This document shows, one piece after another, positions 38,241 to 61,078 of a DNA stretch of 64,000 nt. Numbering within the stretch: position 1 is the stretch's first letter; each line of letters starts with the position of its first letter. The notes beneath the pieces were generated by a model. That model did no database searches and was not told the DNA's origin. It saw only the letters and a list, made by a program, of their open reading frames with translations. The DNA is taken from assembly GCF_009914755.1 (NCBI RefSeq), contig NC_060933.1, one strand, 5' to 3'. A program made the position numbers and the translations under genes. This DNA is from the human T2T-CHM13v2.0 reference genome, Homo sapiens.

Positions 38241-38329
38241 CTACTTCTTTCCTTTCACGTCTTCTTTTACCTTCCAAATGACCAGATCCATGCAGGCTTT
38301 TGCATTTTCACTAGCATTGTGACCTCCAA
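38241..38329 (-). pseudogene. REXO6P: REXO1-like terminal pseudo-exon J (ExoIII motif, native stop; dead acceptor)
   Basis: (V)GGHNASENAKACMDLVIWKVKEDVKGKK* versus recalled REXO1 [29 protein letters not shown]. Acceptor reads ctAT instead of ctAG. Confidence 0.93.
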
Positions 38330-39950
38330 ATAGTACAGAATATTTTTTAAAGTGTTAGACATAAGACAACCATAATCTCTGATGTTACTTACATATTTCT
38401 CAAAATTAAGCCTTCAATTTATGTTTCTAACAAAGTTAACACTGCTCACCTATCGAAATATCATTAATACCTAATACAACCTCCAATGATTGCTTTATAA
38501 ATGTTTTACATGAATGTACTAGATTAACAAACATTGTTCTTTTTCTAGGTAGTCTTTCCTCTGTCACATTATCACTACCTTGCAATGATTGGCTAGCACA
38601 TCGGTACCCTCAGCTGTCTATCTCCTTCCCAGGGAGGTATGAGAAGAAAGTGGAGGGATCACCAAAGCAAGACATCTGGCTAGAAGCCAGAAATGTCGAA
38701 TGGTTAAAAAAAGAAAAAAAAAGTAATCTCTCTAAATAAAAGAACAACTTTAGGCACAAGTTTATATGGTTTTAAAAAGTAGATAAAATTTACCCAAAAC
38801 ATAAAGCTGTATAGTTCTGGTGAGAATAATAAATGATATCTGAGATTGGGTGAGAAAGTCGTATGGTCAATGCTTCTAAAATGGTGTAATAGTTTTCATT
38901 TCTTTACTTGTGTCTTACCCCAAGAAAGCTCTGATATTTTTTTAACTTTTAGAAGATTTTGTTTTAAACAGATTTGTTAACTGAAAGATTATGACCATGG
39001 TTCAAGATTATTTTCAACAGAAGGCCCTACAAATTCTATAATAGAATGTTATGGGAATTCTTTCTGAAATGAGTATTCTTAACAAAGCAGAGGATGTAAA
39101 AGATTCTCTGGAGAGGAGTGTAAGTTCATCATAAAATGAAATCATTTTGTATAATGAATGATATGATCAGAGGAACATCCATATCTCGAGAATCTTTAGA
39201 AACAAAGCAGCGTAATATAATTTTAACATATTTAAAGTTAACTTGCTCTACTGTTTGTACACAGGAAGGGCCTATATGGGCATACATGAATATACAGGTA
39301 TCCTCCATTCCACGCCAGACACTGGTGAAACTGTGCATATAGCAATGCCACGAACAGGTAATTGGTGGCTAGATTTGTTGTACTTGATTAACTTGTTTAA
39401 CATTGGGTATATTTCATCAGAAAAAGCAGAAATAGAAAAATTGGCAGCAAGATATACAAATCTGGTATAAATCAAGTTCACACATAATGACTGAATTTGA
39501 GCCATACCCCCCCCCCCCACCCCACACACACACAAATTTTCTCTTGGTGAGATAACCTGGACCCAATCAAATGTAGAAAGAACCTCTTTTGTTCTAATGA
39601 GAAGCACATATGAAAAGAGGTATACAGCAAGATTTAGAATGGAACAACAAAAGTTCTGTGCATGAATTCAAAGGCCAGACCCAATGATCTGACCACTGTT
39701 CTCAGTGAGATTGCTGTTCTGATTCATGAGGAACACCCAGGACTATACCAGGCAATGGCATATAATGGTTTTTTACACAAGCACAGGCAGATGCTTTAGG
39801 ATTCTCCACCAGAGGAGAGAACCCCCAGAAAAGAACCTGGTCTCCTACCTTAAGCATCTTAGACAGTAGACCTTTATGATGAACCTCACTGTTGTTCAGT
39901 CAAGTCAGACTGAGGGTCTTGACATCAGTCATGAGCAAATGGGCTCTTAC

Positions 39951-40071
39951 CATCATCCTGAACGATTCTCTGCAGGCAATCAGCCATTAGACTCCTAAGG
40001 GGTCTTTTGGGAGGCAAGCCAAGCTGATGAGGAAACATAACCGATATGTCCACAACTGAAGTGTGAATTAA
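39951..40071 (-). pseudogene. REXO6P: REXO1-like pseudo-exon I
   Basis: tgatag|TTA...GATG|gtaaga, 121 bp, open frame. [40 protein letters not shown] versus recalled REXO1 [40 protein letters not shown]. Confidence 0.95.
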
Positions 40072-40199
40072 CTATCAAATAAAAGTAAAAAAAAAAAACA
40101 CCTTTAACTTTCAAATAAAAGTAAAAACTCCAAAATAAGGATGCTGATAGCAGCAATAACTACTTAGGAACAAGGACTATGATACAAGAACAGGCAACA

Positions 40200-40420
40200 G
40201 TCGTGATGTGTCAGTTACTGGACTAAGTATATTGCATAGTTTATCCTGCTGTACTTTGCAGAGTAACCTAATGAGATAGGTATTTTTATTGTCCCTCTTC
40301 ATAGACAAGGAAATTGAAATTTTGAGAGGTTAAAAAACTTGCCTAAACTTACTTAGTAGAGCTGAAGGAAATAAAATCTAAACAGTCTAACTTCAGAGTC
40401 CACACTTTTCTACCATGAGG
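40200..40420 (-). mobile_element. MIR
   Basis: atagacaaggaaattgaaatt...gagaggttaaaaaacttgcctaa core. Confidence 0.6.
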
Positions 40421-40899
40421 AACCACCAGAGGGCAACATCAGGGCAGAGAGGTTCTCACAAGCACTCGGGGAGGCAGAGAACCAGGCTCTGCCCACATTG
40501 TGACTTGGCTGAGAGGGGCACACCCCAGTTCAGTACATGCCATATCGCATTTCAGTGGTTTGCTTATCTGCCTCTGGGGAGAAGGCACACACAACAGCTC
40601 AGGCCTATCTAGTTCCAAATCCCCCATGATTACACATGGAAGAAGCTGAATATGTTTTTACTGAAGTTTGGTGATGTGGAAAATATTATTGATAGAATAG
40701 ATATGGAGGGAGAGGGGTCAGATAATCTAAGGGCTCAGGAAGTCAGGTACGAGTTTGGATTCCTTATTAGGAGAACTGTACTTTGAAAGAAGCATTTAAA
40801 GATTAGCCTGAGAACAAGAGTAATTTGAAGACTAAGAAATGAGGAGTCATAAATTTAAAATTTAGTATCAACTATGCCTTGCCTGACATAACACTTTAA

Positions 40900-41400
40900 A
40901 TGATTATTCAGTGTGCCAGCCACCATGCTCGGCACTGGTTCCTACCTGCAGGGTAGTCTGTAGGGAGCACAGAGCACAAGAAGAGGAGAAATGATCAAGA
41001 AGCTGCACGGGAGAAGGAGGGAGTGGGGAACTCCCGCAGCAGGTACCACTTTGGGGCATCCTAGCACAGTGTCCCTACTCTCAGGGATTTTCAGAGTAGT
41101 GGGGAAAGGTGAAACAGGGGTTGGAACAGACAAAACTCAGCTTGGGGGACAAGGGAAGTTTCCATAAGATGACTCTAAAAGAAGTTGATGGTGGAAATAG
41201 AGAAAAGTATGAAAATCCATGAGTCTTCTGGGTGGAAGAAACAGAACGATTCCAAGGAATGAGGAAATGCAATGTTTTGAAATTTTCTGGTCTGGAGGAC
41301 ATGCAGGATAGAATGGTTCCTGAGAAATCAGGGGCAGGAAAGTCATAGTGAGAGGTGCAGTTTGGGAGATGATGTTTTTGAGGGGACAAGAGGATACCCC
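40900..41400 (-). mobile_element. L2 fragment
   Basis: gtgtgccagccaccatgctcggcactgg followed by a purine-rich L2-like body. Confidence 0.45.
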
Positions 41401-41698
41401 TTTTTTCTTATGAAAAACTCATGTCCCCAACTCTCTTTTCTTACAGTTTGGCAAGGTCCAGAGGCAAGTACATTCCAGTCTCATTTGTCACATGCAGAGA
41501 CAACATTACTCTTTGAAACAAATATCCTATACTTTGGATACCAGCTTCATCAAGAAAAAGGCTGATATTCATCTATGAAAATTAAATGGCCTTACTCATA
41601 TTTTTGCACTGAAGAAGAGCTAGCCCTTCTCTGCATGAAGGCTAGTCCTAGGGGTGGCTGAGACAAACACTCAGCTAAAGGTCCCGAAAGTTCTAGAG

Positions 41699-41889
41699 CT
41701 GTGTTGTGCAATGTGGTAGCCACAAGCTTTATGGGACTGTTGAAATTCAAATTAAAATTAAACAAAATTAGAAATGCATTTCCTCAGTCACATTAGACAT
41801 CTTTCAAGTGCTCAACAGCCAAGTGTGCCTAGTGTCTACCATATTGGGTAGTGCAGATGTAGAATAGAAAGTTCTTTTGGATAACACCG
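41699..41889. mobile_element. MER3-like hAT-Charlie MITE
   Basis: tgtgcaatgtggtagccac...ttcctcagtcacattagacatctttcaagtgctcaacagcc...ttggataacac. Confidence 0.7.
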
Positions 41890-41897
41890 TTCTACGA

Positions 41898-42106
41898 TGG
41901 GATGGGTAAACTTTTTTCTAAAAGTGCCAGATTTAATATTTTCAGCTTGCAAGTCACATGATCTGTCACAACTACTCAACAATATCATTAAAGTGTGAAA
42001 GCAGCCATACACAATCTGTAAATGAGTGGGTATGATGGCTTCATTCCAAGAAAAATATTTAGAAAAACAGGTGGCCAGCCCATGGGCCGTAGTTCACTGG
42101 CCCAGG
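41898..42106. mobile_element. MER58A-like hAT-Charlie MITE
   Basis: ggtaaacttttttctaaaag...caactactcaac...aaagcagccatacacaatctgtaaatgagtggg. Confidence 0.75.
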
Positions 42107-42573
42107 TCTAGAACGTAGAGCAAAACACACACATTTTAACCTGGAGTATATTAAGGAAAGGTTTTCATGTCTATTATGCCAAGAAAATGAACCTAACATT
42201 TAATTTTGAGCCTACCTGACTTAATGTGGAAAAAGACCCCTAAGTATGTGAATAAAATAATCAGTTAATAAATTTAGTCTTGTCTATTTGATTATTAAGG
42301 AAAGTCTGTGAAAACAATGGTTTGGGTTTTATCATAATTGATGAGGGACTATTCTTTATGATCTTGATTAGCCAGATGATGTGAACTGTCTGACACGGCT
42401 TCTAGTTTGTGGTAGTTAGACTGTATCATCAGCAAAGACAGCGATTATTGTCTTCTTGGTTAACAGGGCAAATCAAGTATCAATTATAACATAATGATAA
42501 TGACTGCTATCTTAACACATGTGGTTTTATACATTTTTTTTGTAAAAAAATATGTTGGCTTCTAATTCTTTAC

Positions 42574-42733
42574 CTAAGGGTATAGACTATGTTCAAAGTG
42601 ATGTCCGATTAATACATCACTTTAGTGACACATTAGTACAGTGTCAGCACTAAACAGGTTCAACAAGATAGCTTGGACATCACGGGTTGATGTTTTAATG
42701 TTCTTCAAGTCATCTTCTGCCACACCAGAAAAC
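42574..42733 (-). pseudogene. REXO6P: REXO1-like pseudo-exon H (ExoII motif; 24-bp insertion, two stops)
   Basis: ggtag|GTTT...CTTAG|gtaaag, 160 bp. FSGVAEDDLKNIKTSTRDVQAILLNLFSADTV[LMCH*SDV]LIGHHFEHSLYP* versus recalled REXO1 [46 protein letters not shown]. Confidence 0.93.
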
Positions 42734-43740
42734 CTACCCCAAGATGACATATAATAGCATATAAAAATTTAACTCCATGAATTTTATCAGTTATAGTTAG
42801 AACACATTATTGACCCAATGTGACAAACAGCTGAATGAAACAAAGATCTTATCTGCATGACTGTCAACTACCTCTCTGCTAGTTTACATTGGTAAACTAG
42901 GAAAATTTATCATTTGGTTCCATAATGCAAGGCTGAGGGGAGAATACATTATTACAAGTTCAGAGTTCCTGTTGAATTCTGATCTTTGCATAATCTGAAT
43001 TTTATTCAATACCATTTGTTAAGTATCCTGTCTCCCAGTAACATAAGCCTAAAGACAAAATATGGGTAGCATGGTCGAACAGATGGAGCCCTGGGCAGAT
43101 TCTAGAAAACCTGGGTTTGAACTATGCTTTGATCTGCCATTTACTTACTATATGTTATTTTCAGGTAGTTATTTAATCTTCTGGTCTCAGTCTGCTCTTC
43201 TGTAAAGTAGGGATAATTACCAACCTACTAGTTTATGAGGACCCAATGAAAATGCATGCAGGAAAGTGACTACTCTAGTGGCTTTCATAAAGCACACACT
43301 AAAATAAATATTTAGAACTCAGCTACTGCTAAGGGAGAAAAATACTGCACAAGTATTTTTAACTGAAACTATATGGTGATATTGTCTTTTGTAAGGAGCA
43401 AAAGATACCTGGCTCCATTACTTGGCTTAGTTAGGGAATATGACACATAGTTAATAAGACATTTAGATCAAGAAGAAGTTAGCATAGATGGAGTGCATGG
43501 GTTTGTTTAAAAATATTTTCTAAAGAATGTAATGCATCAAATGCATTTGAATGTTTTCAAGATTCAAAGGTTTTTGTTTTGTTTTGTTTTGTTTTTTAAC
43601 TAATGTCAGCCCTTCAGTTCTCATTTTGTCATTATGAATATCAATAGTTACCTATTTCCTGATTCGTTCCAAAAAAAGGAATTAGGGAAGATTCTATTAA
43701 ACTCATGGAAGAATAAGAACAAATAAGGGTATAATAGATG

Positions 43741-46363
43741 GGAGGGCTGGCAAGATGGCTGAACAGGAACAGCTCCAGTCTGCAGCTCCCAGTGAGATCG
43801 ACGCAGAAGGCGGGTGATTTCTGCATTTCCAACTGAGGTATCCGGTTCACCTCACTGGGACTGGTTGGAGAGTGGGTGTAGCCCACGGAGGATGAGCTGA
43901 AGCAGGGTGGGGCATCGCCTCACCTGGGAAGTGAAAGGGGTTGGGGGATTTCCCTCCCCTAGCCAAGGGAAGCCATGAGAGACTGCACCTGGAGGAACGG
44001 TGCACTCCAGCCGAGATACTGTGCTTTTCCCATAGTCTTTGCAACCGGCAGACCCGGAGATTCCCTCTGGTGCCTACCCTACCAGGGCCCTGGGTTTCAA
44101 GCACAAAACTGGGTGGCTGGGCGGACACCAAGCTAGATGCAGGAGTTTTTTTTTTTTTTTTTTTTTTTTTCCATACCCCAGTGGCACCTGGAATGCCAGC
44201 GAGACAGAACCATTCACTCCCCTGGAAAGGGGGCTGAAGCCAGGGAGCCAAGTGGTCTGGCTTGGCGGGTCCCACCCCCATGGAGTCCAGCAAGCTAAGA
44301 TCCACTGGCTTGAAATTCTCACTGACAACACAGCAGTCTAAGGTCGACCTGGGATGCTCAAGCTTGGTGCGGGGAGGGGCGTCCACCATTACTGAGGCTT
44401 GAGTATGGGGTTTCCCCCTCACGGGGTAAACAAACCCACTGGGAAGTTCAAACTGGGCGGAGCCAACCGCAGTTCAACAAGGCCGCTGCGGCCAGACTGC
44501 CTCTCTAGATTCCTCCTCTCTCAGCAGATCATCTCTGAAAAAAAGGCAGCAGCCCCAGTTAGGACTTATAGATAAAACCCCCATCTCCCTGGGACAGAGC
44601 ACCTAGTGTAAGGAGTGGCTGTGGGCGCAGCTTCAGCCGATTTAAATGTCCCTGCCTGACAGCCCTGAAGAGAGCAGCGGATCTCTCAGCACAGCATTTG
44701 AGGGACAGACTGCCTCCTCAAGTGGGTCCCTGGCCCCCATGTATCCTGACTGGGAGACACCTCACAGCAGGGTTCGACAGACACTTCATAAAAAAGAGCT
44801 CCAGCTGGCATCTGGCAGGTGCCCCTCTGGGGTGAAGCTTCCAGAGGAAGGAACAGGCAGAAATCTTTGCTGTTCTGCAGCCTCCGCTAGTGATACCCAG
44901 GCAAAAAGGGTCTGGAGCGGACCTCCAGCAAACTCCAGCAGACCTGCAGCAGAGGGTCCGGACTTTTAGATGGAAAACTAACAAACAGAAAGGAATAGTA
45001 TCAACATCAACAAAAAGGACATCCAAAGACACCATTTGAAGGTCACCAACATCAAAGGCCAAACAAAGGTAGATAAATCCACAAAGATGGGGAGAAACCA
45101 GCGCAAAAAGGCTGAAAATTCCAAAAACCAGAATGCCTCTTCTCCTCCAAAGGATCACAACTCCTCACCAGCAAGGGAACAAAACTGTGGGTAATAAAAA
45201 ACTCCTCTGAGCTAAAGGAGCATGTTCTAACCCAACGCAAGAAAGCTAAGAACCTTGAAAAAAGGTTAGACGAATTGCTAACTAGAATAACCAGTTTAGA
45301 GAAGAACATAAATGACCTGATGGAGCTGAGAAATGCACAGTACGAGAAGTTTGTGATGCATACACAAGTATCAATAGCTGAATCGACCAAGCGGAAGAAA
45401 GGATATCAAAGATCGAAGATCAACTCAATGAAAGTGAGAAGATTAGAGAAAAAAGAGTGAAAAGAAACAAACAAAGCCTCCAAGAAATATGGGACTATGT
45501 GAAAAGACCAAATGTATGTTTGATTGGTGTACCTGAAAGAGATGAGAGGAATAGAAACAAGTTGGAAAACTCTTCAGGATATTATCCAGGAGAACTTCCT
45601 CAACCTAGCAAGGCAACTCAACATTTAAATTGAGGAAATACAGAGAACACCACAAAGATACTCCTCGATAAGAGCAACCCCAATACACGTAACTGTTAGA
45701 TTCACCAAGGTTGAAATGAAAGAAAAAATGTTAAGGGCAGCCAGAGGGAAAGGTTGGGTTACCCACAAAGGGAAGCCGATCAGACTAACAGCAGATCTCT
45801 CTGTAGAAACCCTACAAGCCAGAAGAGAGTGGGGGACAAAATTCAACATTCTTAAAGGGAAGAATTTTCAACTTGAGAAGATTAGAGAAAAAAGAGTGAA
45901 AAGAAACAAGTGGCAGAATTTCCTGTTCAGCCAAACTAAGCTTCATAAGCGAAGGAGAAATAAATTCCTTTACAGACAAGCAAATGCTGAGAGATTTTGC
46001 CACCACCAGGCCTGCCTTACAAGAGCTTCCAAAGGAAGCGCTAAACATGGAAAGGAACAACTGGTACCGGCCACTGAAAAAACATACCAAATTCTAAAGA
46101 CCACTGATGCTATTAAAAAACCGCATCAACTACTGGGAAAAATAACCAGCTAGCATCACAATGACAGGATCAAATTAACACATAACAATATTAACCTTAA
46201 ATGTAAATGGGCCAAATGCCCCAATTAAAAGACACAGACTGGCAAATCAGATAAGGAGTCAAGACCCATCAGTGTGCTGTATTCAGGAGACCCATCTCGC
46301 ATGCAAAGACACACATAGGCTCAAAATAAAGGGATGGAGGAATATTTACCAAACAAATGGAAG

Positions 46364-46401
<38 letters not shown>

Positions 46402-49400
46402 CAGGGATTGCAATCCTAGTCTCTGATAAAACAGACTTTAAACCAACAAAGATCAAAAGAAACAAAGAAGGGCACTGCATGATGGTAAAGGGATCAATGC
46501 ACCAAGAACTGCTATCTATCCTAAATATATACGCACCCAATACAGGAGCACCCAGATTCATAAAGCAAGTTTCTAGAGATCTATAGAGAGACTTAGACTC
46601 CCACATAATAATAGTGGGAGACTTTAACACTCCGTTGTCAATATTAGACAGATCAACGAGACAAAATTAACAAGGATATTCAGGACTTCATCTCGGCTCT
46701 GGACCAAGTGCACCTAATAGACATCTATAGAACTCTCCACACCATATCAACAGAATATACATTATTCTCAGCACCTCATCGCACTTATTCTAAAATCTAC
46801 CACATAATTGAAAGTAAAAGAATGCAAATCATAACAGTCTCTCAGACCACAGTGCAATCAAGTTAGAATTCAGGATTAAGAAACTCACTCAAAACCCTAC
46901 AACTACATGGAAACTGAACAACCTGCTCCTGAATGACTACTGGGTAAATAACAAAATGAAAACAGAAATAAAGATTTTCTTTGAAACCAATGAGAACAAA
47001 GATACAATGTACCAGAATCTCTAGGACACATTTGACATATTTAAAGCAGTGTGTAGAGGGAAATTTATAGCAGTAAATGCCCACAAGAGAAAGCAGGAAA
47101 GATCTAAAAATCAACAACCTAACATCACAATTAAAAGAACTAGAGAAGCAACAGCAAACAAATTCAGAAGCTAGCAGCAGACAAGAAATAACTAAGATCA
47201 GAGCAGAACTGAAGGACCTAGAGACACGAAAAACCCTTCAAAAAATTCAATGAATCCAGTAGGTGTTTTGAAAAGATAAAAAAAATAGACCACTAGCCAG
47301 ACTAATAAAGAAGAGAGAAGAATGAAATAGACAAAAAAAAGTTGATAAAGGGGTTATCACCACCGATCCCAGAGAAATACAGACTACCATCAGAGAATAC
47401 TATAAACACCTCTACGCAAATAAACTGAAAAAACTAGAAGAAATGGATATATTCCTGGACACATACCCCCTCCCAAGTCTAAACCAGGAAGAAGTCAAAT
47501 CCCTGAATAGACCAATAACAAGTTTTGAAATTGAGGCAGTAATTTACAGCCTACCAACCAAAAAAAGTCCAGGACCAGATGGATTCACAACCAGATTCTA
47601 CCAGAGGTACAAAGAGGAGCTGGTACCATTCCTTCTGAAACTATTCCAAACAATAGAAAAAGAGGGAATCCTCCCTAACTCATTTTACAAGGCCAACATC
47701 CTCTGATACCCAAACCTGGCAGAGACACAACAAAAAAAGAAAATTTCAGGCCAATATCCCTGATGAACATCAATGCAAAAATCCTCCATAAAATACTGGC
47801 AAACCAAATCCAACAGCACACCAAAAAGCTTATCCACCATCATCAAGTGGGCTTCATCCCTGGGATGGAAGGCTGGTTCAATATATGCAAATCAATAATC
47901 GTAATCCATCACATGAACAGAACCAATGAAAAAAACCACATGATTATCTCAATAGATGCAGAAAAGGCCTTCGACAAAATTCAAGACCCCTTCATGCAAA
48001 AAGCTCTCAATAAACTAGGTATCGATGGAACTTATCTCAAAATAATAAGAGCTATTTATGACAAACCCACAGCCAACATACTGAATGCGCAAAAACTGGA
48101 AGCATTCCCTTTAAAAACCGGCACAAGACAAGGACACCCTCTCTCACCCCTCCTATTCAACATAGTATTGGAAGTTCTGGACAGGGCAATCAGGCAAGAG
48201 AAAGATATAAAGTGTATTCAAATAGGAGGAGAGGAAGTCAAATTGTCTCTGTTTGCAGATGATATGGTCATGTATTTAGAAAACCCCATTGTCTCAGCCC
48301 AAAATCTCCTTAAGCTGATAAGCAACTTCAGCAAAGTCTCAGGATACAAAATCAACGTGCAAAAATCACAAGCATTCTTTTTTTTTTTTTTTTTTTTTGA
48401 GACGGAGTCTCGCTCTGTCGCCCAGGCTGGAGTGCAGTGGCGCGATCTCGGCTCACTGCCATTCTTATACACCAATAACAGACAAACAGAGAGCCAAATC
48501 ATGAGTGACATCCCATTCACAATAGCTACAAAGAGAATAAAATACCTGGGAATCCAACTTACAAGGGATGTGAAGGACCTCTTCAAGGAAAACTACAAAC
48601 CACTGCTTAAGGAAATAAGAGAGGACACAAACAAATGGAAAAACATTCCATGCTCATGAATAGGAAGAATCAATGTCGTGAAAATGGCCATATTGTCCAA
48701 AGTAATTTATAGATTCAATGCTATCCCCATCAAGCTACCACTGACTTTCTTCACAGAATTGGAAAAAACTACTTTAACGTTCATATGGAACCAAAAAAAG
48801 AGCCTGCATAGCCAAGACAATCCTGGGCAAGGAGAACAAAGGTGGAGGCATCACGCTACCTGACTTCAAACTATACTACAAGGCTACAGTAACAAAACAG
48901 CATGGTACTGGTACCAAAACAGATATATAGACCAATGGAACAGGACAGAGGTCTCAGGAATAACACCACACATCTACAACCATCTGTTCTTTGACAAACC
49001 TGACACAAACAATGGGGAAAAGATTCCCTATTTAATAAATGGTGTTGGGAAAACTGGCTAGCCATATGCAGAAAACTGAAATTGGACCCCTTTCCTTACA
49101 CCTTATACAAAAATCAACTCGAGATGGATCAAAGACTTAAACGTAAGACCTAGGACTATAAAAATCCTGGAAGAAAACCTGGGCAATACCATTGAGGACA
49201 TAGGCATGGGCAAAGACTTCATGTCTAAAACACCAGAAGCAATGGCAACAAAAGCGAAAATAGACAACTGGGATCTAATTAAACTAAAGAGCTTCTGCAC
49301 AGCAAAATAAACTATCATCAGTATGAAGAGGCAACCTGCAGAATGGGAGAAAATTTTTGCAATCTATCCATCTGACAAAGGGCTAATATCCAGAATCTAC

Positions 49401-50264
49401 AAGGACTTCAACAAATTTACAAGAAAAAAAAAACCACCAAAAAATGGGCAAAGGATATGAACAGACACTTCTCAAAAGAGGACATTTATGCAGCCAACAG
49501 ACATATGAAAAAATGCTCATCATCACTGGTCATTAGAGAAATGCAAATCAAAACCACAATGAGATACCATCTCACGCCACTTAGAATGGTGATCATTAAA
49601 AAGTCAGGAAACAATAGATGCTGGAGAAGATGTGGAGAAATAGGAATGCTTTTACACTGTTGGTGGGAGTGTAAACTAGTTCAACCATTGTGGAAGACAG
49701 TATTGCAATTCCTCAAGGATCTAGAACCAGAAATACCATTTGACCCACCAATCCCATTACTGGGTATATACCCAAAGGATTATAAATCATTCTACTATAA
49801 AAACACTTGCACACTTATGTTTGTTGTGGCACTGTTCACAATAGCGAAGACTTGGAACCAACCCAAATATCCACCAATGATCGACTGGATAAAGAAAATG
49901 TGGCACATATACACCATGGAATAAAAAATGATGAGTTCATGTCCTTTGCAGGGACATGGATAAAGCTGGAAACCATCATTCTCAGGAAACTATCACAAGA
50001 ACAGAAAACCAAACGCCGCATGTTCTCACTCATAAGTGGGATATGAACAATGAGAACACATGGACACAGGGAGGGGAAAAACACACATCAGGGCCTGTTG
50101 GTGGGTGGGGAGCTAGGGGAGGGATAACATTAGGAGAAATACCTCATGTAAGTGACAGGTTGACGGGTGCAGCAAACCACCATGGCACGTGTATACCTTT
50201 GTAACAAAACTGCACGTTCTGCACATGTACCCCAGAATTTAAAGTATAATAACAATAATAAAAA
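43741..50264 (+). mobile_element. Full-length L1 (L1PA7/8-like), disrupted, no clear TSD
   Basis: 5'UTR gggctggcaagatggctgaacagg, ORF1/ORF2 remnants, 3'UTR and A-rich tail. Confidence 0.95.
48380..48459 (-). mobile_element. 5'-truncated young Alu (AluY-like) inside L1 ORF2
   Basis: T-run plus gagacggagtctcgctctgtcgcccaggctggagtgcagtggcgcgatctcggctcactgc. TSD cattctt at 48373-48379 and 48460-48466. Confidence 0.92.
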
Positions 50265-50972
50265 GATCTTAAGCTGGAAAATGGAATACTGTCTTCTATC
50301 TTTAGTATAAGGAAATGCCACAAATCTTCTTTCCAAATATACAATGGGGAATAAAAACTTATCTTATGTTTTATTAAAGATGACTATTCATATGTTTGAC
50401 ATGTACAAAGCACTTTCCTATATTTTAGCATATCTGATTTTCATAGTCACTATGGGGTTGTTACTGACTCCATAATTTACAGCTTAGAGCATCTAAGAGA
50501 CTTGCTCAGAAGGTCACAGCTAGTAGAACTTTCCAGGTCTTGTAATTCCAAATTCTGTTTTCCCCACTTTTTAGCACTGATTCTTATGTAAAGGAACATA
50601 AGTCCCTATAAAGATTTTATTGTCTCTAGAAATGATTTTGCCAAAAGCATTAAAGCTTTTATGCTGATTATTTTTCACTCACATAATTTCAGCAATTTGA
50701 TGAGTAGAATTACCACTATTTGTATATTTTAGAAATTTGACCGATAAAAAGACACTCAGGACAGTTCCTGGCTCCATCGCTCTAGGTGCGTGAACTTAAC
50801 CAATTCACTAACTCTTCTCAGCTTTAATGGCTTCATCTGAAAATTTGTGAACAACCAATGCAGCACTGTGTCGTCAAGGAATAAGGCCCTGGAAACCCTT
50901 CTACCAGGTAGACTGCTACACAATCATTCAGTCATAATAACCACAGTAAAGTAAAATATAAAACCAACATAC

Positions 50973-51080
50973 CATCTCACAACTTACTGCAAACACACGG
51001 TGATTACCATCAGCAGGTGGGAACTTGACAAAAGTCTTCACAAAGCCCTTTAGGTTTTCTTTGTGGTCATGAACATGAAG
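50973..51080 (-). pseudogene. REXO6P: REXO1-like pseudo-exon F (ExoI motif)
   Basis: tttcag|CTT...GAGATG|gtatgt, 108 bp. LHVHDHKENLKGFVKTFVKFPPADGNHRVFAVSCEM versus recalled REXO1 QHVQDGRKERLEGFVKTFEK...GIYALDCEM. Confidence 0.92.
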
Positions 51081-51255: not shown

Positions 51256-51329
51256 CTTGGCGACCTGACACCGGGGCGATCCAAGGAAACCTCCACAACA
51301 GCCGTATTGAGATTCAAAGCCACTGAGGA
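51256..51329 (-). pseudogene. REXO6P: REXO1-like pseudo-exon E
   Basis: ttacag|TC...GCCAAG|gtagga, 74 bp. (V)LSGFESQYGCCGGFLGSPRCQVAK versus recalled REXO1 [25 protein letters not shown]. Confidence 0.92.
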
Positions 51330-54290: not shown

Positions 54291-54390
54291 TTTTTCTTTA
54301 TTGGACTGTACTGAACATTGAACTTAATACTTCATTCCACTTCTCTGAACAGCTGGCTTGTCAAACCAAACAGAACTACCAAATACTTGC

Positions 54391-54504
54391 CTTTATGACT
54401 CAACACTCCGCCAAATTGGTAGTTACATTCTTCTACCCTGCTGTGTCAACCTGAGGGAGTCACACCATATATTTTTCCACATCGACAACAGAGCTTCTTA
54501 GGTG
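54391..54504 (-). pseudogene. REXO6P: REXO1-like pseudo-exon D (Cys-rich; stop and dead acceptor)
   Basis: 114 bp. PKKLCCRCGKIYGVTPSG*HSRVEECNYQFGGVLSHK versus recalled REXO1 [36 protein letters not shown]. Acceptor is tttcGG and donor is GCaagt. Confidence 0.9.
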
Positions 54505-55009
54505 CCGAAACAAAACATGAAGTAGGATTATTCCAGATGAGATGGGAGAGAAAAGGTAAATGAACCAATGTGGAGACTTGCCTTTGCATGCTTGATCCTG
54601 TGGGAAGCACATACCCAGTGTGATTACAGAGTAACAGGAGAAGTTACAGGATCACTCAAGGGAGAATTTGCAAGTGGCTTGCTTATTGCACCAGGGCTGC
54701 TGCTGCTTAAACAGGCACCCCCTCCCCGCTACCTAGCTCCAAAGTCAGCCCAGTGCCAGCCAATTGTAGTTTTAGTGTTACAACTTGACTGTAACCAACT
54801 TGACCAGTCAACTACTCTAGTACATAATAGCTCCCTGAAATAGGAGCCATGTCTTCCTTATGATTTTATCCCTTCAAGAGTCTCCCACAATAAACTGTAC
54901 ATTTATTATTAAGTTATTAAGAGTATATCTGCGTTTTTCACTAGACCCATTCATGAATATTTGTTTTATTAATAAACCTCAGACTGGTTCTGATAGTGAT
55001 AATAATGGT

Positions 55010-55830
55010 GATAACAGCAACTCTTATTTGAATATCCATGATGAGATTAGATTATGAGGCAGGCTCTGTGTCAAGCACTCTATATACATTATTTTAATGG
55101 ATTCTCACAACAACCTGATGGGGTAGTTATCATTATCCTCATATTCAGAATGAGAAAACAGAGGGTAGGAGGGGTTAAATGACTTATCTAGCATCCAGAC
55201 CTTGAATAACACTTCACTGAGAAAACAGCCTTTAGGAAGCCTGACTTCCCCCTTCAGAGTCCATATTCTTACCTGCTAAGTGTATTGCCTTCCATTGAGG
55301 GGATGTGAAAAAATAAAACAAAACGAGAAAAGCTAATAGTGAAGATAATCCCAAGGGAGAAGTCCTAAAGATGCAGAAGATGACAAATATTTTCTAGTCA
55401 CTGTAGAATATTTGTATAACTGCATTTCATACTCTGATCATCAACCTAAAGTTTGACAGCTGTGATGTTTAGCATTCTCTCTCAGTGGGGATGAACATAT
55501 TAACTAATTATGCCTAGTATTTGGAGAACATGCAAAATAAGACTAATTATAAATCTTTGTATAATAATTCACAGTGAGAATTTATAGTTTTCAAAACATG
55601 GCATTGTATATGTAAATGAATAGTGATGAAGAGTAAGAGCTCAGGAGTTGGACACCTTGGCTTCAAATCCTGGCTCTCCCACTTATTTTCTGTGACCTTT
55701 GACAAGTTATTTGAATTCTCTGAACATCAGTTTCCTCATTTGTGTAATCAGGGGAATAACAATGCTTACCTGAAATGGTTGTTTTGAGGACTTAATAAAG
55801 TAGATCACTTAGATAAAATTAAGCACCTAG
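55010..55830. mobile_element. MIR fragments (about 55010-55270 minus, about 55620-55830 plus)
   Basis: MIR cores (ctcacaacaacctgatggggtag; ttcaaatcctggctctcccactta...cagtttcctcatttgt). Confidence 0.65.
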
Positions 55831-56055: not shown

Positions 56056-56194
56056 CATCATTTCCAAGTTTTTTTCACGCCTAGGTTTAAAAGAATACTT
56101 CCTGGTTTGTTGGGGTATGGTCTAGGGTAGTTATTTTTGTGTAGCTGTTCCTCAGTTAGCAAGTAGTTTTTAAGATGTCTATAGAGAATAACTC
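56056..56194 (-). pseudogene. REXO6P: REXO1-like pseudo-exon C (frameshifted)
   Basis: catag|GA...GATG|gtaagt, 139 bp. GVILYRHLKNYLLTEEQLHKNNYPRPYPNKPGS versus recalled REXO1 [33 protein letters not shown]. A net +1 nt near the A7 run breaks phase. Confidence 0.92.
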
Positions 56195-57269
56195 CTATGA
56201 GCACTAAGAAAAAAAGAAAAGCTATTCCATAAAATTTATGTAGCATTATCTTTCTTTACATTGTGGTAAGGTTAGAGTTTACCAACCCTTTCAGATCTGA
56301 AATGCTAGGGTTCTGATTAAGTAAGGTAGTGGCCTAAAAGAATTCTAGGTCTTCATATCCATCATCCAGCAACACCAACAAAACCGACATTGTTCCGTAT
56401 ACCATGTGACATCATACGCTTTGGGTGAGAAAAGGGAAGAATCATATCAGTAATAGCATATAGTAAGCATAGCACTTTGGTTTAAACTTTACATTAACTT
56501 AGAAAGGCAACTGCATTGATTTCATTTTTACAGATGAGGAAAATGAGGCTCAGAAAAATAAAGACACATGCCCAAGGTTACACAGCACAACTGACACACA
56601 AACCCAGGCCTTCTGGTTCCAAACTATGCGGTTATCCTTAATATTCAGACAAGGTTACAACAAACGCTTATAATCAAGGACCACAAAGGGAAACACGACA
56701 AGTCTCTCATGGCAAAAGAGTTCAAGTTCAGGTTCCATTTCCAACATCACTAACCCAGACCAAGAGCCCCTCATTTTTATGGATTCTTTTAGAATTTTAT
56801 CTATTTTCTTATTTAAAACTCTAACAGAATTTGCTAGATACTCTTTGGTAAACGCTTTGGCAAAAGGAAAAATTATTTTGTGAGAAGTATTAGGAGATTC
56901 AAAAGGATCTATTTTGTTTTCAGTCTCATATGTAAGGCTTTATTAGAGGAGAAGCACTACCATTTGCTTTTATTCAAAATGTAGCCAAAGTCTAATAACT
57001 CCTTTTCTGTAGCTTCTTGCTCCTTGGAGTTTGTTATAAATTCAGGGTTTGAGATCCCTCCCAGACCTACTGAACCAGATTCTGCATTTTAACAAGAGTC
57101 CCGTGTAATTCAAACCCATGTAAAGTTTGACATTTGAGAAGCATTGGTCTTGCTGACTGGACATACGTTAACCAAAAAAGAAAATTAACACATGCTAATC
57201 AAAAAAGCAAAATAGTTGAGAATTCAATCCAAATATAGCTTAAATGTAAGTTCTTTTCCCTTATTTATA

Positions 57270-57652
57270 CTTTTTTTTTATTTTACTTGAAATTCTGGGA
57301 TACTTGTGCTGAACGTGCAGGTTTGTCACATAAGTATACATATCTCATGGTGATTTGCTGCACCTATCAACCCATCATCTAGGTTTTAAGCCCCACATGC
57401 GTTAGGTATTTGTCCTAATGCTCTCCCTCCCCTTGCCTCCCACCCCGACAGGCCCCAGTGTGTGATGTTCTGCTCGTGTCCATGTGTTCTCATTGTTCAA
57501 CTCCCACTTATGAGTGAGAACACGCAGTGCTTGGTTTTCTGTTCCTGTGTTAGTTTGCTGACAATGATGGTTTCCAGCTTCATCCATGTCCCTGTAAAGG
57601 ACATGAACTCACTCTTTTCTATGGCTGCACAGTATTCCATGGTGTATTTGTA
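57270..57652 (-). mobile_element. L1PA 3'-end fragment
   Basis: Reverse complement of the L1 3'UTR and ORF2 end. Confidence 0.9.
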
Positions 57653-57798
57653 CTGATTTTTTAAAAGGATATAAAAAATGCATAGTATGCAGTTGACCCT
57701 TCATAAACATAATAATTTAGTATTTGTACTATACCAGGGTTACTTTCCCCTTAAGGTATCAATTACAGGGCTTATTACTATTATTACAGTAAGCTTAC

Positions 57799-58179
57799 CA
57801 TTTTTGTGTTCCTTCCCCCACTCCCCCCCCCCCCTTTTTTTTTTGAGACAGAATCTTGCTCTGTCACCAGGCTGGAGTGCAGTGGCGCGATCTCAGCTCA
57901 CTGCAACCTGTGTCCCAGGTTCAAGCAATTCTCCTGCCTCAGCCTCCCGAGTGGCTGGGACTACAGGTATACAACACCACGCCCAGCTAATTTTTGTATT
58001 TTTAGTAGAGACGGAGTTTCACCATGTCGGCCAGGATGGTCTCGATCTCTTGACTTCGTGATCCACCTGCCTCGGCCTCCCAAAGTGCTGGGATTACAGG
58101 CGTGAGCCACCGCGTGTGGCCTATTTTTCTGTTCCTACTCTCTAAATTGTTTTCTTGTCATTACTGCTTCTAGGCACGA
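57799..58179 (-). pseudogene. REXO6P: Candidate linker pseudo-exon B, split by an Alu insertion
   Basis: tcttttag| acceptor at 58180 and G|gtaagc donor at 57798. Removing the Alu plus one TSD leaves a 58-nt exon-like unit. No clear protein homology. Confidence 0.4.
57814..58121 (-). mobile_element. Alu (AluSc-like) with C-rich tail extension
   Basis: Reverse Alu. TSD atttttgtgttcct (57800-57813) / atttttctgttcct (58123-58136). Confidence 0.93.
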
Positions 58180-58655
58180 CTAAAAGATACAAGAAATTCT
58201 CTGAAATTAATGATTATTCTTGTCTGTTCCATAAAAACACATAGCACATTAAAAAAGATATAAGCATGGTAAAATATTTATTTTTATCTTAAAACAAGTA
58301 TCCAACATGTGAGTCCAAATGTCTTCATAACAAATTCCAAGCTGGGAAAAAAGTTAAATCTACTGAACTATTAAAAATGTCAAGACTTGATATTTGCTCA
58401 AATTAATACATTTTGTATAATGGATTATGTCTAAATTTGAGTCAATATGTTTTATATTATAATTTACCACAACTGTAACAACTTGCAAACCATTTCTATT
58501 TTCATGGGAAATATTTAAAACAGATACTAAGACCTCTACGTTCCATTTCTATGTGCTATATTTAATATGAATAGAAGGGGGAAGAGTTAGCTTAACCTGA
58601 AAAGACTAACCTAACAGACCCTGCATATATTAACACATGTATTTAAATCTATTTA

Positions 58656-58970
<315 letters not shown>

Positions 58971-58999
58971 ACCCCTAAAGTGTCATACATAAGAAATGC

Positions 59000-60260
59000 C
59001 ACAAAAATCATAGATTGATAGTTTATGTTCTTGAGATTGGAATAGTCTGAGACAAAACCCAGAAATCAAAGAGACTGATTACACTTTGCAATCACATCTA
59101 TCTAATAATACTTCATAAATAAGGCTGAAGAACAAACGATAAACTGAGGAATGGATTTGCAGCACATTAAAACGGTGATAGGCAAAGGTTGTTCCAGATG
59201 AACAGACCAATAAGAAACGGGGGAGTGGGAGGAGGGATGCAGAAGAGAGAGAAAGAAAAAAAAAGAACCGCTTTAACTCTGCCAGTAATAAATTTTTTTA
59301 AAAAAGACTAACTTCAGGCCAGTCGTGGTGGCTTATGCCCGTAATCCCAACACTTTGGGAGGTCTACGTGGGAGGACTGCTTGAGCTCAGGCACACGAGA
59401 CCAAGCCTGGGCAATGTGGTATAACCCCATCTCTACAAAAAATACAAAAATTAGCTGAGTGTGATGGAGTATGCTTGTAGTCCCAGCTACTCAACAGGCT
59501 GAAGTGGGAGGATCCCTTGACCATGGGAGGCGAAGGATTGAACCCCTGCACTCCAGCCTGGGCAACAGAGCCTCACCGTGTCTCGAAAAGAAAAGAAAAA
59601 AAACTAACTTCATTTTTGCTCTACACCATTGCAGTCTGACAGAGGCTAAATGATAAGCTTTGGCAAGGTGTGAGAAAAACACATATACTTCTACTTTATC
59701 GAAGGGGAATATAAATGGGCAAACTCTTTGGATGCAGTTAGCAATATTTACCAGTTTCAAACACGCAGACCCTTGCTTCTGCGCACAGGAATTTGTGCTA
59801 GGATACATATCATCATGTAGGAGAAAATGTTAGAGGTTACACTTAAATTTATCACAGAATATATAGAAAAATATTTTTTTCTATGTGAAATAATCATCTA
59901 CAAAAGTCAGAGAAAAAAATCATATATGAAAAAGTCATATAGGAAAAAATGTAAGCACTCCAAATATCCAAATGTGTTTGGGCCACCACTACGCCCGGCT
60001 AACTTTTGTATCTTTAGTATAAGTTCTATAGAAAAGAATATCTATCGTATAGATTCTACATAATAGAATATCGTAGCCATTATAAAAAGCATGATATTGA
60101 TCCAGATGTTAACAGATTCTAGATTAACTGACAAGGCCTCTGATACCTTATTCAGTGAAAATAGCTAGACATACTGTATATATAAAATTATCATATTCAC
60201 TAAAAATTTTAAAACTATATACATCTCTGTAGTAATACATAGAAAGGTCTAAATAAGAAA
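59000..60260 (+). mobile_element. Old L1M(E-type) 3' fragment
   Basis: Degenerate L1 ORF2-end and 3'UTR motifs, interrupted by an Alu. Confidence 0.55.
59317..59596 (+). mobile_element. Alu (AluJ-like)
   Basis: TSD aaaaagactaacttca (59301-59316) / aaaaaaactaacttca (59597-59612). Confidence 0.92.
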
Positions 60261-60324
60261 TATGAAAGAGTTGTCTTGGCTGCTTTTTACTCTTTATGTT
60301 TTTCTATATTATTTGAATTCATGC

Positions 60325-60710
60325 CATACATTCTTGATGGAACTGATACTGCCCACAAGGGAGCAAAATTGACTCTTGAGGGATGAAGAAAATCTTAAAT
60401 ACTATGATGGTATATGGTTCTTCAAAATTCAACCTTACCTAATAAAATCTTATCCCTTGGCACTTATTTTTTTTTATTATTAGTATACTTTAAGTTTTAG
60501 GGTACATGTGCACAATGTGCAGGTTAGTTACATATGTATACACGTGCCATGCTGGTGTGCTGCACCCATTAACTCGTCATTTAGCATTAGGTGTATCTCC
60601 TAAAGCGGCACTTAATTTTATGAAGGGGGAAGAGGGAGGTGATAGAAAAAATAATGTCTGCAAAGATTTCTTAGGGGGACGATAACGAAAACAAGGTTGA
60701 GAAATGCTAT
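60325..60710. mobile_element. hAT-Charlie-type DNA element interrupted by an L1 fragment
   Basis: Terminal ...aaggttgagaaatgct motif typical of Charlie TIRs. Confidence 0.45.
60467..60606 (-). mobile_element. Very short 5'-truncated young L1 (L1PA2/3-like 3'UTR)
   Basis: tatactttaagttttagggtacatgtgcacaatgtgcaggttag... TSD ggcactta at 60459-60466 and 60607-60614. Confidence 0.92.
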
Positions 60711-60981
60711 TCCGCATAGAAGTGAGTTACTTTCATAACCAGAAAACAAGTTTAAATATTTCAGTGATAACCTCTGACAATAAGGTTATAGTTATACATC
60801 CAATTTCAAATGCAGCTGATTTTCAACCACAAGTACCACCTACACATTCCACTAAAGAGACTATTTAAAAAATAAATTCCTTGGTATAAGCTAAAGATGG
60901 CCCTACTAATGAGAAAAAGTATTCAGGGTCAGGTACTAATTACAGGTTTTATCACTTGATTAATTGAAAAAAATAAATTAC

Positions 60982-61078
60982 CTTGATCTCTTAGCTTCTT
61001 AAGATAATTTACTGCTATGTTCACATACATATTTCTCCTGCTACACCTTTCATATATTGCCTTTTTTTCTATTTTAGC
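60982..61078 (-). pseudogene. REXO6P: REXO1-like pseudo-exon A
   Basis: cctag|GCT...CAAG|gtaatt, 97 bp. AKIEKKAIYERCSRRNMYVNIAVNYLKKLRDQ versus recalled REXO1 [31 protein letters not shown]. Confidence 0.88.

What the first reader, a model, noticed from the sequence alone, without database searches (positions are those of the whole stretch)
38241..61078. Hidden multi-exon fossil gene: a lost REXO1 paralogue on the minus strand, convergent with TEK
Seen: eight short minus-strand exons scattered among L1, Alu and L2 elements (61078-60982, 56194-56056, 54504-54391, 51329-51256, 51080-50973, 42733-42574, 40071-39951, 38329-38241). Splice phases are compatible once one frameshift and one absent exon are allowed for. 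Only one exon appears in the ORF track. Knowledge: the translations align in order to the C-terminal half of REXO1/EloA-BP1, covering the Cys/His-rich region and the DEDDh exonuclease domain (comparison from memory, roughly 40-65% identity). Inference: retained introns plus high protein divergence imply an ancient duplicate that was coding for a long time and died fairly recently, i.e. a unitary pseudogene rather than an ordinary lncRNA. I recall the locus as LINC00032/C9orf14, later REXO6P, so its existence may be catalogued, but the lost protein's biology is essentially unstudied.
Basis: partly seen in the sequence, partly recalled or inferred. Interest (0 to 1): 0.9.

Follow-up and report, generated by a model that had tools for sequence, protein, structure and literature searches.

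The report
Dead human copy of exonuclease REXO6
This stretch holds the broken remains of REXO6, an old vertebrate sister gene of the RNA exonuclease REXO1 that is still intact in lemurs, dogs, pigs, turtles and frogs; it is already catalogued as the pseudogene REXO6P, so it is real but not new.

Summary
Eight minus-strand pieces between 38241 and 61078 match REXO1-family proteins in order (tblastn E 1e-15 to 3e-4). Two pieces also hit Pfam EloA-BP1.

The locus is the annotated transcribed pseudogene REXO6P. A maximum-likelihood tree places the conceptual human protein inside a strongly supported clade separate from REXO1. That clade holds named proteins from coelacanth, lungfish, amphibians, reptiles, birds, monotremes, opossum and 18 placental species, including two lemurs. 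Gene models that fuse this protein with EQTN and MOB3B domains in tree shrew, bat and whale indicate the same neighbourhood. It is therefore a unitary pseudogene of an ancient REXO1 paralogue.

Lesions within the window:
- three in-frame stops
- one frameshift
- a 24-base insertion
- a lost splice acceptor
- one undetectable exon, in an interval mostly filled by an antisense L1

An unexpected extra: all 23 placental REXO6 sequences examined already lack the three catalytic aspartates of the DEDDh site, while opossum, monotremes and 120 of 120 REXO1 sequences keep them.

Searches found no paper on REXO6. Interest is low to moderate.

The parts
60982..61078 (-). Exon e1, EloA-BP1 domain (Pfam profile positions 42-73). 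Identical to a RefSeq exon. Ends with one spare base (phase 1).
   Evidence: Pfam PF15870 E 1.8e-8. tblastn E 8.7e-10 to P0002 and 6e-11 to Otolemur. AG/GT flanks.
56056..56203 (-). Exon e2, end of the EloA-BP1 domain (profile positions 127-161). Not in RefSeq NR_026679.1. The likely acceptor is AG at 56205-56204.
   Evidence: Pfam E 1e-11. tblastn E 1.3e-15, 73% identity. Sequence.
56058..56070 (-). Frameshift lesion at the A-run near the 3' end of e2. The main frame runs into TGA at 56060-56058. The shifted frame reads L-G-N-D, which matches the L-(L/V)-N-D that precedes the next exon in the orthologues.
   Evidence: Sequence, orthologue alignment. The junction phase with e3 fits only after the shift. 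This is an inference from those two outputs.
54391..54504 (-). Exon e3, first half of the Cys/His-rich module (C-C-R-C-G ... E-E-C-N-Y). RefSeq extends it to 54597 through an upstream acceptor. The donor is GC rather than GT.
   Evidence: tblastn E 7e-16 to the lemur proteins. Sequence.
54505..54506 (-). Probable lost acceptor of e3: cGG after a polypyrimidine tract, where cAG is expected.
   Evidence: Sequence. This is an inference, because no orthologous DNA was available.
54446..54448 (-). In-frame TGA stop in e3, where the 12 placental orthologues shown have K, R or Q.
51256..51329 (-). Exon e4, second half of the Cys/His-rich module. Identical to a RefSeq exon.
   Evidence: tblastn E 2.6e-4 and 1.9e-7. 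The phases fit e3 and e5.
50973..51080 (-). Exon e5, start of the exonuclease domain with the Exo I motif. It reads S-C-E-M where REXO1 has D-C-E-M. Identical to a RefSeq exon.
   Evidence: tblastn E 3.9e-10. Alignment. Catalytic mapping.
42734..50972 (-). Interval that should hold one more exon of 39 codons (C-Y-T-A-K-G ... I-D-Y-N-T-R in orthologues). No remnant was found.
   Evidence: tblastn of 36 orthologous exon peptides against this interval gave a best E of 0.19, with hits on both strands and none convincing.
43700..50270 (+). Near full-length L1 element, antisense to REXO6P, filling most of the interval above. Its GC-rich 5' end (about 43.7-44.9 kb) coincides with the RefSeq 'enhancer' features at 43709-44712. 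The boundaries are approximate.
   Evidence: Pfam: Transposase_22 at 45629-46150 (E 4e-27), Exo_endo_phos at 46179-46583, RVT_1 at 47679-48656 (E 2e-41). GC is 0.54-0.57 at 43.7-44.9 kb. The 5' UTR assignment is an inference.
42574..42733 (-). Exon e6, middle of the exonuclease domain with the Exo II motif. It reads H-H-F-E-H-S-L where REXO1 has H-S-L-E-S-D-L. Not in RefSeq NR_026679.1.
   Evidence: tblastn E 2.8e-15, 73% identity. AG/GT flanks.
42601..42624 (-). 24-base insertion (8 codons) absent from every orthologue shown. It carries a TAA stop at 42624-42622. Its exact limits are ambiguous by a few bases.
   Evidence: An 8-residue gap in all tblastn alignments. Sequence.
42574..42576 (-). 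TAG stop as the last codon of e6. Orthologues end this exon with A-L-K; the human sequence reads P-stop and is one codon shorter.
39951..40071 (-). Exon e7 of the exonuclease domain. Identical to a RefSeq exon.
   Evidence: tblastn E 9.6e-15, 74% identity. phmmer of P0001 against 1.8 billion proteins found 1082 relatives at E <= 1e-3.
38241..38323 (-). Exon e8 with the Exo III motif and the ancestral stop codon at 38243-38241. The motif reads G-H-N-A-S-E-N-A where REXO1 has G-H-x-S-S-E-D-A. RefSeq has this exon as 38323-38245.
   Evidence: tblastn E 3.7e-8 to opossum. The phase fits e7.
55273..55826 (-). Two RefSeq-only exons (55826-55770 and 55364-55273) with no REXO homology. They are later additions to the non-coding transcript.
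   Evidence: No tblastn hit here with 6 query proteins. Translations.

Best explanation
The region is the 3' half of REXO6P, the disabled human orthologue of REXO6. REXO6 is an ancient vertebrate paralogue of REXO1. Its protein has an Elongin-A-binding-protein-1 domain, a Cys/His-rich module and a C-terminal DEDDh exonuclease domain. The gene keeps its ancestral place and orientation next to EQTN and MOB3B, tail to tail with TEK. In the human lineage it lost its reading frame and can no longer make the protein. It is still transcribed and spliced into a non-coding RNA (LINC00032, NR_026679). That RNA skips two ancestral exons and uses two new ones. Shown here: homology, exon order, phases, lesions, clade membership and intact relatives elsewhere. 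Inferred: death after the split from lemurs, probably tens of millions of years ago, and no remaining protein function.
For: - Eight collinear tblastn hits at E 1e-15 to 3e-4. Two exons also match Pfam EloA-BP1.
- Splice phases are consistent from e3 to e8, and from e1 to e2.
- Careful IQ-TREE on 50 rows and 374 columns: REXO6 clade 100/99, REXO1 clade 100/96, placental REXO6 100/100. The human row sits in a 5-row set with two lemurs, rabbit and colugo (99/95).
- Identity is 71-77% to 12 placental REXO6 proteins and 52-57% to REXO1.
- Intact named relatives include a dog UniProt entry named 'RNA exonuclease 6 (putative)'.
- Fused gene models carry Mob1 and/or Afaf (equatorin) domains together with EloA-BP1 in Tupaia, Pteropus and Kogia. 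This matches the human neighbours EQTN and MOB3B in the supplied annotation.
- Lesions: stops at 54448-54446, 42624-42622 and 42576-42574; a frameshift near 56070-56058; a 24-base insertion; a cGG acceptor; one exon not detectable.
- The human row differs at 13 of 122 positions invariant in 12 placental orthologues. The same test applied to each orthologue in turn gives 0-9.
Against: - No genomic DNA from other primates or mammals was available. Orthology by position rests on fused gene models and the tree, not on aligned loci.
- The excess of human-specific over lemur-specific replacements is modest: 35-40 against 19-26, with p from 0.01 to 0.25 depending on outgroup. There is no excess against colugo (31-34 against 27-31).
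- The 5' half of the gene lies outside the window and was not examined.
- Pfam found nothing in the 5 short exons after the EloA-BP1 region (the second half of the Cys/His module and the exonuclease domain) taken singly.
- Only the 120 best of 1825 relatives were listed, so the absence of anthropoid and rodent proteins is an absence from that list only.
Confidence: 0.93

Rival explanations
1. The locus now works as a functional long non-coding RNA (LINC00032), and the coding past is irrelevant to its present role. This does not exclude the pseudogene origin.
For: RefSeq lists a spliced transcript (NR_026679.1, in the supplied annotation) that uses new exons and a cryptic acceptor. Nineteen papers name LINC00032. 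A table in PMC7376740 lists it under 'Mutation / nevus development' and cites PubMed 17099875.
Against: I saw only the search listing for those 19 papers, plus passages from one of them. There it is a table row, not a functional study. The cited primary paper is not held. Nothing in the sequence argues for RNA-level constraint, and none was tested here.
Confidence: 0.12
2. It is a duplicated or processed pseudogene copied from REXO1 or from the REXO1L/GOR family, not a unitary pseudogene.
For: Source databases name most relatives 'RNA exonuclease 1 homolog' and a few 'exonuclease GOR'.
Against: - Introns are retained between all eight pieces, over 23 kb.
- The human row falls in the REXO6 clade, not with the REXO1 rows.
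- Identity to REXO1 is about 20 points lower than to placental REXO6.
Confidence: 0.02
3. The gene still encodes a shortened protein from exons upstream of the window (the N-terminal half), or a small peptide such as the 81-residue Celera prediction.
For: A database entry, hCG2011190 (P0001, 81 residues), joins parts of e1, e7 and e8. The 5' half of the gene was not examined.
Against: P0001 skips five homologous exons and most of both domains. RefSeq classes the transcript as non-coding. The three stops, the frameshift and the missing exon rule out the ancestral C-terminal half.
Confidence: 0.04

Closest known systems
REXO1 (Elongin A-binding protein 1; RNA exonuclease 1 homologue)
   Same: Same architecture in the same order: EloA-BP1 domain, Cys/His-rich module, C-terminal DEDDh exonuclease domain. 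The two are sister clades in the tree.
   Different: It is a separate paralogue: 52-57% identity against 71-77% to REXO6 proteins. REXO1 keeps D-E-D-H-D in 120 of 120 bird and turtle sequences. The human locus reads S-E-S-H-N and is disabled.
Intact REXO6 of other vertebrates (for example dog UniProt A0A8I3P7F8 'RNA exonuclease 6 (putative)', Microcebus P0161, Otolemur P0165)
   Same: Same clade. The same neighbours are suggested by the fused models. The same exon-by-exon alignment holds. The placental-type substitutions at the catalytic sites are shared.
   Different: Those are open reading frames. The human copy has three stops, a frameshift, an 8-codon insertion and a missing exon.
REXO1L1P / GOR copies (recalled: tandem REXO1-derived copies on human chromosome 8)
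   Same: Also REXO1-family sequences that are partly pseudogenised in humans.
   Different: GOR is recalled to be a recent REXO1-derived expansion. The window's gene is an ancient single-copy paralogue at a conserved position. No named GOR sequence was available, so this was not tested directly.
ISG20 (PDB 1wlj) and Arabidopsis SDN1 (PDB 5z9x)
   Same: The DEDDh catalytic core of turtle REXO6 aligns to both (E 6.9e-15 and 2.5e-26). This fixes which residues are the catalytic D, E, D, H and D.
   Different: These are single-domain or plant enzymes with no EloA-BP1 or Cys/His module. They are active enzymes.
Classical human unitary pseudogenes such as GULOP and UOX (recalled)
   Same: A single-copy gene, intact in other mammals, disabled in the primate lineage at its ancestral locus and still partly transcribed.
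   Different: Here the protein appears to have lost its catalytic residues in the placental stem, long before the reading frame broke.

Membership tests
REXO1/Rex1-type exonucleases | EloA-BP1 domain (Pfam PF15870) | tested here: met
   Exons e1 and e2 match profile positions 42-73 and 127-161 at E 1.8e-8 and 1e-11, both above the gathering score.
REXO1/Rex1-type exonucleases | Cys/His-rich module between the two domains | tested here: met
   e3 and e4 align column by column to the C-C-R-C-G ... E-E-C ... C-C ... G-C-Q block of all relatives. One conserved His is changed to Gln and there is one in-frame stop.
REXO1/Rex1-type exonucleases | Homologous C-terminal DEDDh exonuclease domain | tested here: met
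   e5-e8 align to the domain at E 4e-10 to 3e-15. phmmer with P0001 found 1082 relatives. Pfam on the single short exons found nothing. One exon of the domain is missing.
REXO1/Rex1-type exonucleases | Catalytic residues D-E-D-H-D intact | tested here: not met
   The human exons read S-E-S-H-N at positions mapped through ISG20 and SDN1.
REXO1/Rex1-type exonucleases | Open reading frame | tested here: not met
   Three in-frame stops, one frameshift and one absent exon.
REXO6 orthology group | Placement inside the REXO6 clade, apart from REXO1 | tested here: met
   Clade support is 100/99. The human row lies within placentals (100/100). The FastTree of 146 rows gives the same picture.
REXO6 orthology group | Conserved position next to EQTN and MOB3B | tested here: inconclusive
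   Support is indirect: 3 fused gene models carry Mob1 and/or Afaf domains together with EloA-BP1. No genomic loci from other species could be fetched.
Unitary pseudogene | Disabling lesions at the ancestral, intron-bearing locus | tested here: met
   Introns are retained over 23 kb.
Unitary pseudogene | Functional orthologue in other species and no functional copy in the same genome | tested here: inconclusive
   Intact predicted proteins exist in 18 placental species and many other vertebrates. The rest of the human genome could not be searched for a second REXO6 copy.
Processed pseudogene (retrocopy) | No introns, contiguous cDNA-like copy | tested here: not met
   The eight pieces are separated by 0.2-8 kb of sequence, and most have AG/GT borders.

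The most novel reading that the evidence does not exclude
REXO6 is an unstudied ancient sister of REXO1. In the stem of placental mammals it turned into a catalytically dead 'pseudo-exonuclease'. All 23 placental sequences examined have replaced the three catalytic aspartates, while opossum, monotremes and most other vertebrates keep them. Even so, it was kept as an open and fairly conserved gene in many placental orders for a non-catalytic job, such as RNA or Elongin A binding. It was then discarded in the lineage leading to humans. The human pseudogene would thus mark the second step of a two-step loss: first of catalysis, then of the protein.
Probability: 0.5. Interest if true: 0.5.

Novelty: already known. 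Interest (0 to 1): 0.3.

Why it matters
The locus itself adds nothing new to the catalogue, since RefSeq and HGNC already call it REXO6P. What the check adds is context that my searches did not find in print.

- REXO6 is an old vertebrate gene, distinct from REXO1 and intact in many mammals, including lemurs. Humans therefore lack a protein that dogs, pigs and rabbits appear to have.
- Papers that treat LINC00032 as a generic lncRNA are describing the transcript of a dead exonuclease gene.
- The loss of the catalytic aspartates across placentals, with the reading frame retained, offers a testable case of an enzyme turned pseudoenzyme. It also cautions against assuming that REXO6 in model mammals is an active nuclease.

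Tried and rejected
- Word-indexed protein search with one 40-residue exon, longer proteins allowed. It returned only the locus's own Celera prediction, 1 of 4 candidates. This was too insensitive, so I replaced it with the exhaustive phmmer search.
- PDB sequence search with the same exon gave 0 hits. I later searched with full-length turtle REXO6 instead.
- Pfam on single exonuclease-domain exons gave nothing for 5 of 7 exon translations.
- Hunt for the missing exon in 42734-50972 with 36 orthologous peptides. The best E was 0.19. The only collinear minus-strand candidate (50920-50828, about 30% identity with two gaps, E 0.27-0.52) begins about 50 bases after the e5 donor. It is far less similar than the other exons, so I rejected it as chance.
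- A frameshift inside the 54-kb exon was ruled out. That exon is in one frame throughout, with a single TGA.
- Retrocopy or REXO1/GOR-derived duplicate was rejected on the tree and on retained introns.
- Dating the death from replacement counts. The human excess over lemurs is only about 1.5-fold and of borderline significance. Any date needs recalled neutral rates, so only 'tens of millions of years, after the lemur split' is offered.
- Reading the paper behind the 'nevus development' entry (PubMed 17099875) failed because it is not held. A follow-up search did not surface it.

Full report
**1. What is in the sequence**

Five have canonical AG...GT borders exactly as claimed: 61078-60982, 51329-51256, 51080-50973, 42733-42574 and 40071-39951.

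Pfam matched the first two pieces to EloA-BP1 (PF15870), at profile positions 42-73 and 127-161, with E 1.8e-8 and 1e-11. The other five short translations gave no Pfam match (2 of 7 matched).

A word-indexed search with the 40-residue exon found only a Celera prediction from this very locus (P0001, 81 residues). The PDB search with that exon found nothing. An exhaustive phmmer search with P0001 against 1.84 billion representatives found 1082 proteins at E <= 1e-3 and 240 at E <= 1e-10.

**2. Collinear homology**

tblastn of 29 of those representatives against the window gave 2-9 hits each at E < 0.01.

For the best one (P0002, later named as a pangolin protein) there were eight hits, all on the minus strand and in protein order. 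Their E-values ran from 1.3e-15 to 2.6e-4 and identities from 51 to 74%. The remaining seven rows had E >= 0.56. Two lemur proteins reproduce the same eight places.

**3. Corrections to the exon map**

- The second exon most likely begins at 56203. AG lies at 56205-56204. The spare G of exon 1 plus TG then gives the conserved Val, and the V-L-I-G that follows aligns to the orthologues.
- The last exon begins at 38323, as in RefSeq. Its phase fits the spare base of 40071-39951.
- The 54504 start follows a polypyrimidine tract and cGG, which looks like a mutated acceptor. RefSeq uses a cryptic acceptor at 54597, and the donor there is GC.
- The exons at 56 kb and 42.7 kb are homologous but absent from NR_026679.1.
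- The RefSeq exons 55826-55770 and 55364-55273 show no homology to any of six query proteins.

**4. Lesions in the window**

- (a) The 3' end of e2 is out of phase with e3. The main frame runs into TGA at 56060-56058. The shifted frame reads L-G-N-D, matching the L-(L/V)-N-D that precedes the next exon in the orthologues.
- (b) TGA at 54448-54446, where the placental orthologues shown have K, R or Q. The rest of that exon is in one frame.
- (c) An insertion of 8 codons in e6, absent from all relatives shown, carrying TAA at 42624-42622.
- (d) TAG at 42576-42574 as the last codon of e6, which is also one codon short.
- (e) One exon of 39 codons is not detectable between 50973 and 42733. Thirty-six orthologous peptides gave a best E of 0.19, with hits on both strands.
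- (f) The human row differs at 13 of 122 positions that are invariant in 12 placental orthologues. The same test applied to each orthologue in turn gives 0-9.

**5. What gene it was**

A named search with P0002 listed the 120 best of 1825 relatives. They include:

- 23 rows from 18 placental species: pangolin, grey seal, leopard cat, pig, panda, raccoon dog, sloth, dog, mouse lemur, cattle, yak, rabbit, bushbaby, colugo, goat, pygmy sperm whale, black flying fox and tree shrew;
- opossum, platypus and echidna;
- turtles, crocodilians, lizards, birds, frogs, salamanders and caecilians;
- lungfish and coelacanth.

Most are named 'RNA exonuclease 1 homolog' by their sources. One dog UniProt entry is named 'RNA exonuclease 6 (putative)'.

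A second named search, seeded with a 1220-residue representative, returned 120 bird and turtle proteins named REXO1. Several species appear in both lists with different proteins, for example Chelonia mydas, Columba livia, Opisthocomus hoazin and Eudromia elegans.

**6. Trees**

From 149 candidate proteins, 145 covered at least 250 residues of the reference region. I aligned these with the joined human translation, using X at each stop.

FastTree on the 146 rows separated a vertebrate REXO1 group from a larger group holding all proteins of the first list. The human row sat among the placentals.

For a careful tree I kept 50 rows of my own choosing. These were the human row, 26 named rows of the first list, 4 named REXO1 rows and 19 unnamed representatives. 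Fused models and most unnamed rows were dropped.

IQ-TREE with a site-mixture model gave the following:

| Group | Rows | Support |
|---|---|---|
| REXO6 clade | 34 | 100/99 |
| REXO1 clade | 10 | 100/96 |
| Placental REXO6 | 12 | 100/100 |
| Human + two lemurs, rabbit, colugo | 5 | 99/95 |

The human end branch is 0.23, against 0.085 and 0.098 for the lemurs.

Identity over the human-covered columns is 71-77% to placental REXO6, 61-68% to opossum, platypus, turtle, alligator, kiwi and frog, 57% to coelacanth, and 52-57% to REXO1 rows.

Coelacanth and lungfish fall inside the REXO6 clade and tetrapod REXO1 falls outside it. The duplication therefore predates the tetrapods.

**7. Position**

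I could not fetch genomic DNA from other vertebrates. Indirect evidence for conserved position comes from three mis-joined gene models:

- Tupaia P0262 carries Mob1, Afaf (equatorin) and EloA-BP1 domains.
- Pteropus P0251 carries Afaf and EloA-BP1.
- Kogia P0193 carries Mob1 and EloA-BP1.

In the supplied annotation REXO6P, EQTN and MOB3B follow one another on the minus strand, so such read-through models are what neighbouring genes would give. The tail-to-tail arrangement with TEK (which ends at 22735 on the plus strand) comes from the annotation.

**8. When it died**

Two strepsirrhine primates have intact models. No anthropoid, tarsier or rodent protein is among the 120 best rows, although an intact one should rank near the top. 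This is an absence from a list, not a proof.

Human-specific replacements outnumber lemur-specific ones 35-40 to 19-26, with p from 0.01 to 0.25 depending on outgroup. There is no excess over colugo.

Two rates below are recalled rather than computed. Roughly one random coding change in twenty makes a stop, and the primate neutral rate is near 1e-9 per site per year. On those figures, two or three nonsense changes in about 880 bases suggest neutral drift for tens of millions of years, with wide error. I therefore read 'recent' as within primates after the lemur split, and probably before the living anthropoids diverged. This is inference.

**9. An unexpected feature of the family**

Turtle REXO6 aligns to the solved DEDDh nucleases SDN1 (5z9x, E 2.5e-26) and ISG20 (1wlj, E 6.9e-15). 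The ISG20 alignment puts its recalled catalytic residues D11, E13, D94, H149 and D154 on D-C-E-M, H-S-L-E-N-D-L and G-H-D-S-S-E-D-A.

Reading those five positions in every fetched sequence gave the following:

| Group | Result |
|---|---|
| Placental rows, first Asp | 0 of 23 keep it (N in 19, S in 3, H in 1) |
| Placental rows, second Asp | 0 of 23 keep it (S in 19, N in 2, C in 1, gap in 1) |
| Placental rows, third Asp | 0 of 19 covered rows keep it (N in 17, S in 1, K in 1) |
| Opossum and both monotremes | D-E-D-H-D |
| Non-placental rows of the first list (97) | 70 complete, 7 truncated but unchanged, 20 with at least one change |
| REXO1 rows | 120 of 120 complete |

The human exons read S-E-S-H-N.

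Yet 122 of 293 columns are invariant across 12 placental orthologues, and their pairwise identities are 75-87%. That is not what 90 million years of neutral drift would leave.

The protein lost in humans was thus probably already a non-catalytic relative of an exonuclease. That these substitutions abolish activity follows from general knowledge of DEDDh nucleases. It was not tested.

**10. Surroundings**

The interval that should hold the missing exon is mostly a plus-strand L1. Pfam finds ORF1 domains at 45629-46150, the endonuclease domain at 46179-46583 and reverse transcriptase at 47679-48656. A GC-rich stretch (0.54-0.57) at 43.7-44.9 kb looks like its 5' UTR and coincides with the RefSeq 'enhancer' features. 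Whether the L1 insertion removed the exon is an open idea.

**11. Literature**

- Searches for REXO6P, REXO6 and 'RNA exonuclease 6' found no paper on the gene. The single hit for the last phrase is a lung-cancer circRNA paper, seen in the search listing only.
- LINC00032 occurs in 19 papers, seen in the search listing only.
- In PMC7376740 I read the two passages. It appears there as a table row ('Mutation; nevus development; PubMed 17099875') and as an abbreviation.
- The cited paper is not held, and a further search did not find it.
- I opened no supplements.

**12. Verdict**

This is a real, correctly interpreted feature, but it is already catalogued. It is the transcribed unitary pseudogene REXO6P. 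The new context is the age of the gene, its intact state in many mammals and the placental loss of the catalytic aspartates. That context is of moderate interest and is testable.

Noticed in passing
Proteins P0002, P0152-P0165, P0174, P0181, P0193, P0201, P0209, P0233, P0251, P0262 (placental REXO6): All 23 placental REXO6 sequences lack the three catalytic aspartates of the DEDDh site, while opossum, monotremes, 70 of 97 other REXO6 rows and 120 of 120 REXO1 rows keep them. This suggests a conserved pseudo-exonuclease in placentals.
   Followed up: partly
window 43700-50270 (+): A near full-length L1, antisense to REXO6P, fills most of the interval where the missing exon should be. Its GC-rich 5' end coincides with the RefSeq 'enhancer' features at 43709-44712. 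NCBI's mask list begins only at 46134.
   Followed up: partly
P0262 (Tupaia), P0251 (Pteropus), P0193 (Kogia): Public gene models fuse MOB3B and/or EQTN domains with REXO6. These look like read-through annotation errors, but they usefully indicate conserved gene order.
   Followed up: yes
window 42601-42624 (-): The 8-codon insertion in exon e6 loosely resembles the following 24 bases (about half the positions match by eye). It may be an old tandem duplication, but this was not tested statistically.
   Followed up: no
Non-placental REXO6 rows: Twenty of 97 non-placental REXO6 rows also carry a substitution at one or more catalytic positions, most often at the Exo II aspartate. One example is the pigeon row. 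REXO6 catalysis may be under weaker constraint than REXO1 catalysis in general.
   Followed up: no
window 55273-55364 and 55770-55826 (-): Two exons of the RefSeq transcript have no counterpart in any REXO protein, while two ancestral exons are skipped. The surviving RNA is a re-spliced remnant.
   Followed up: partly
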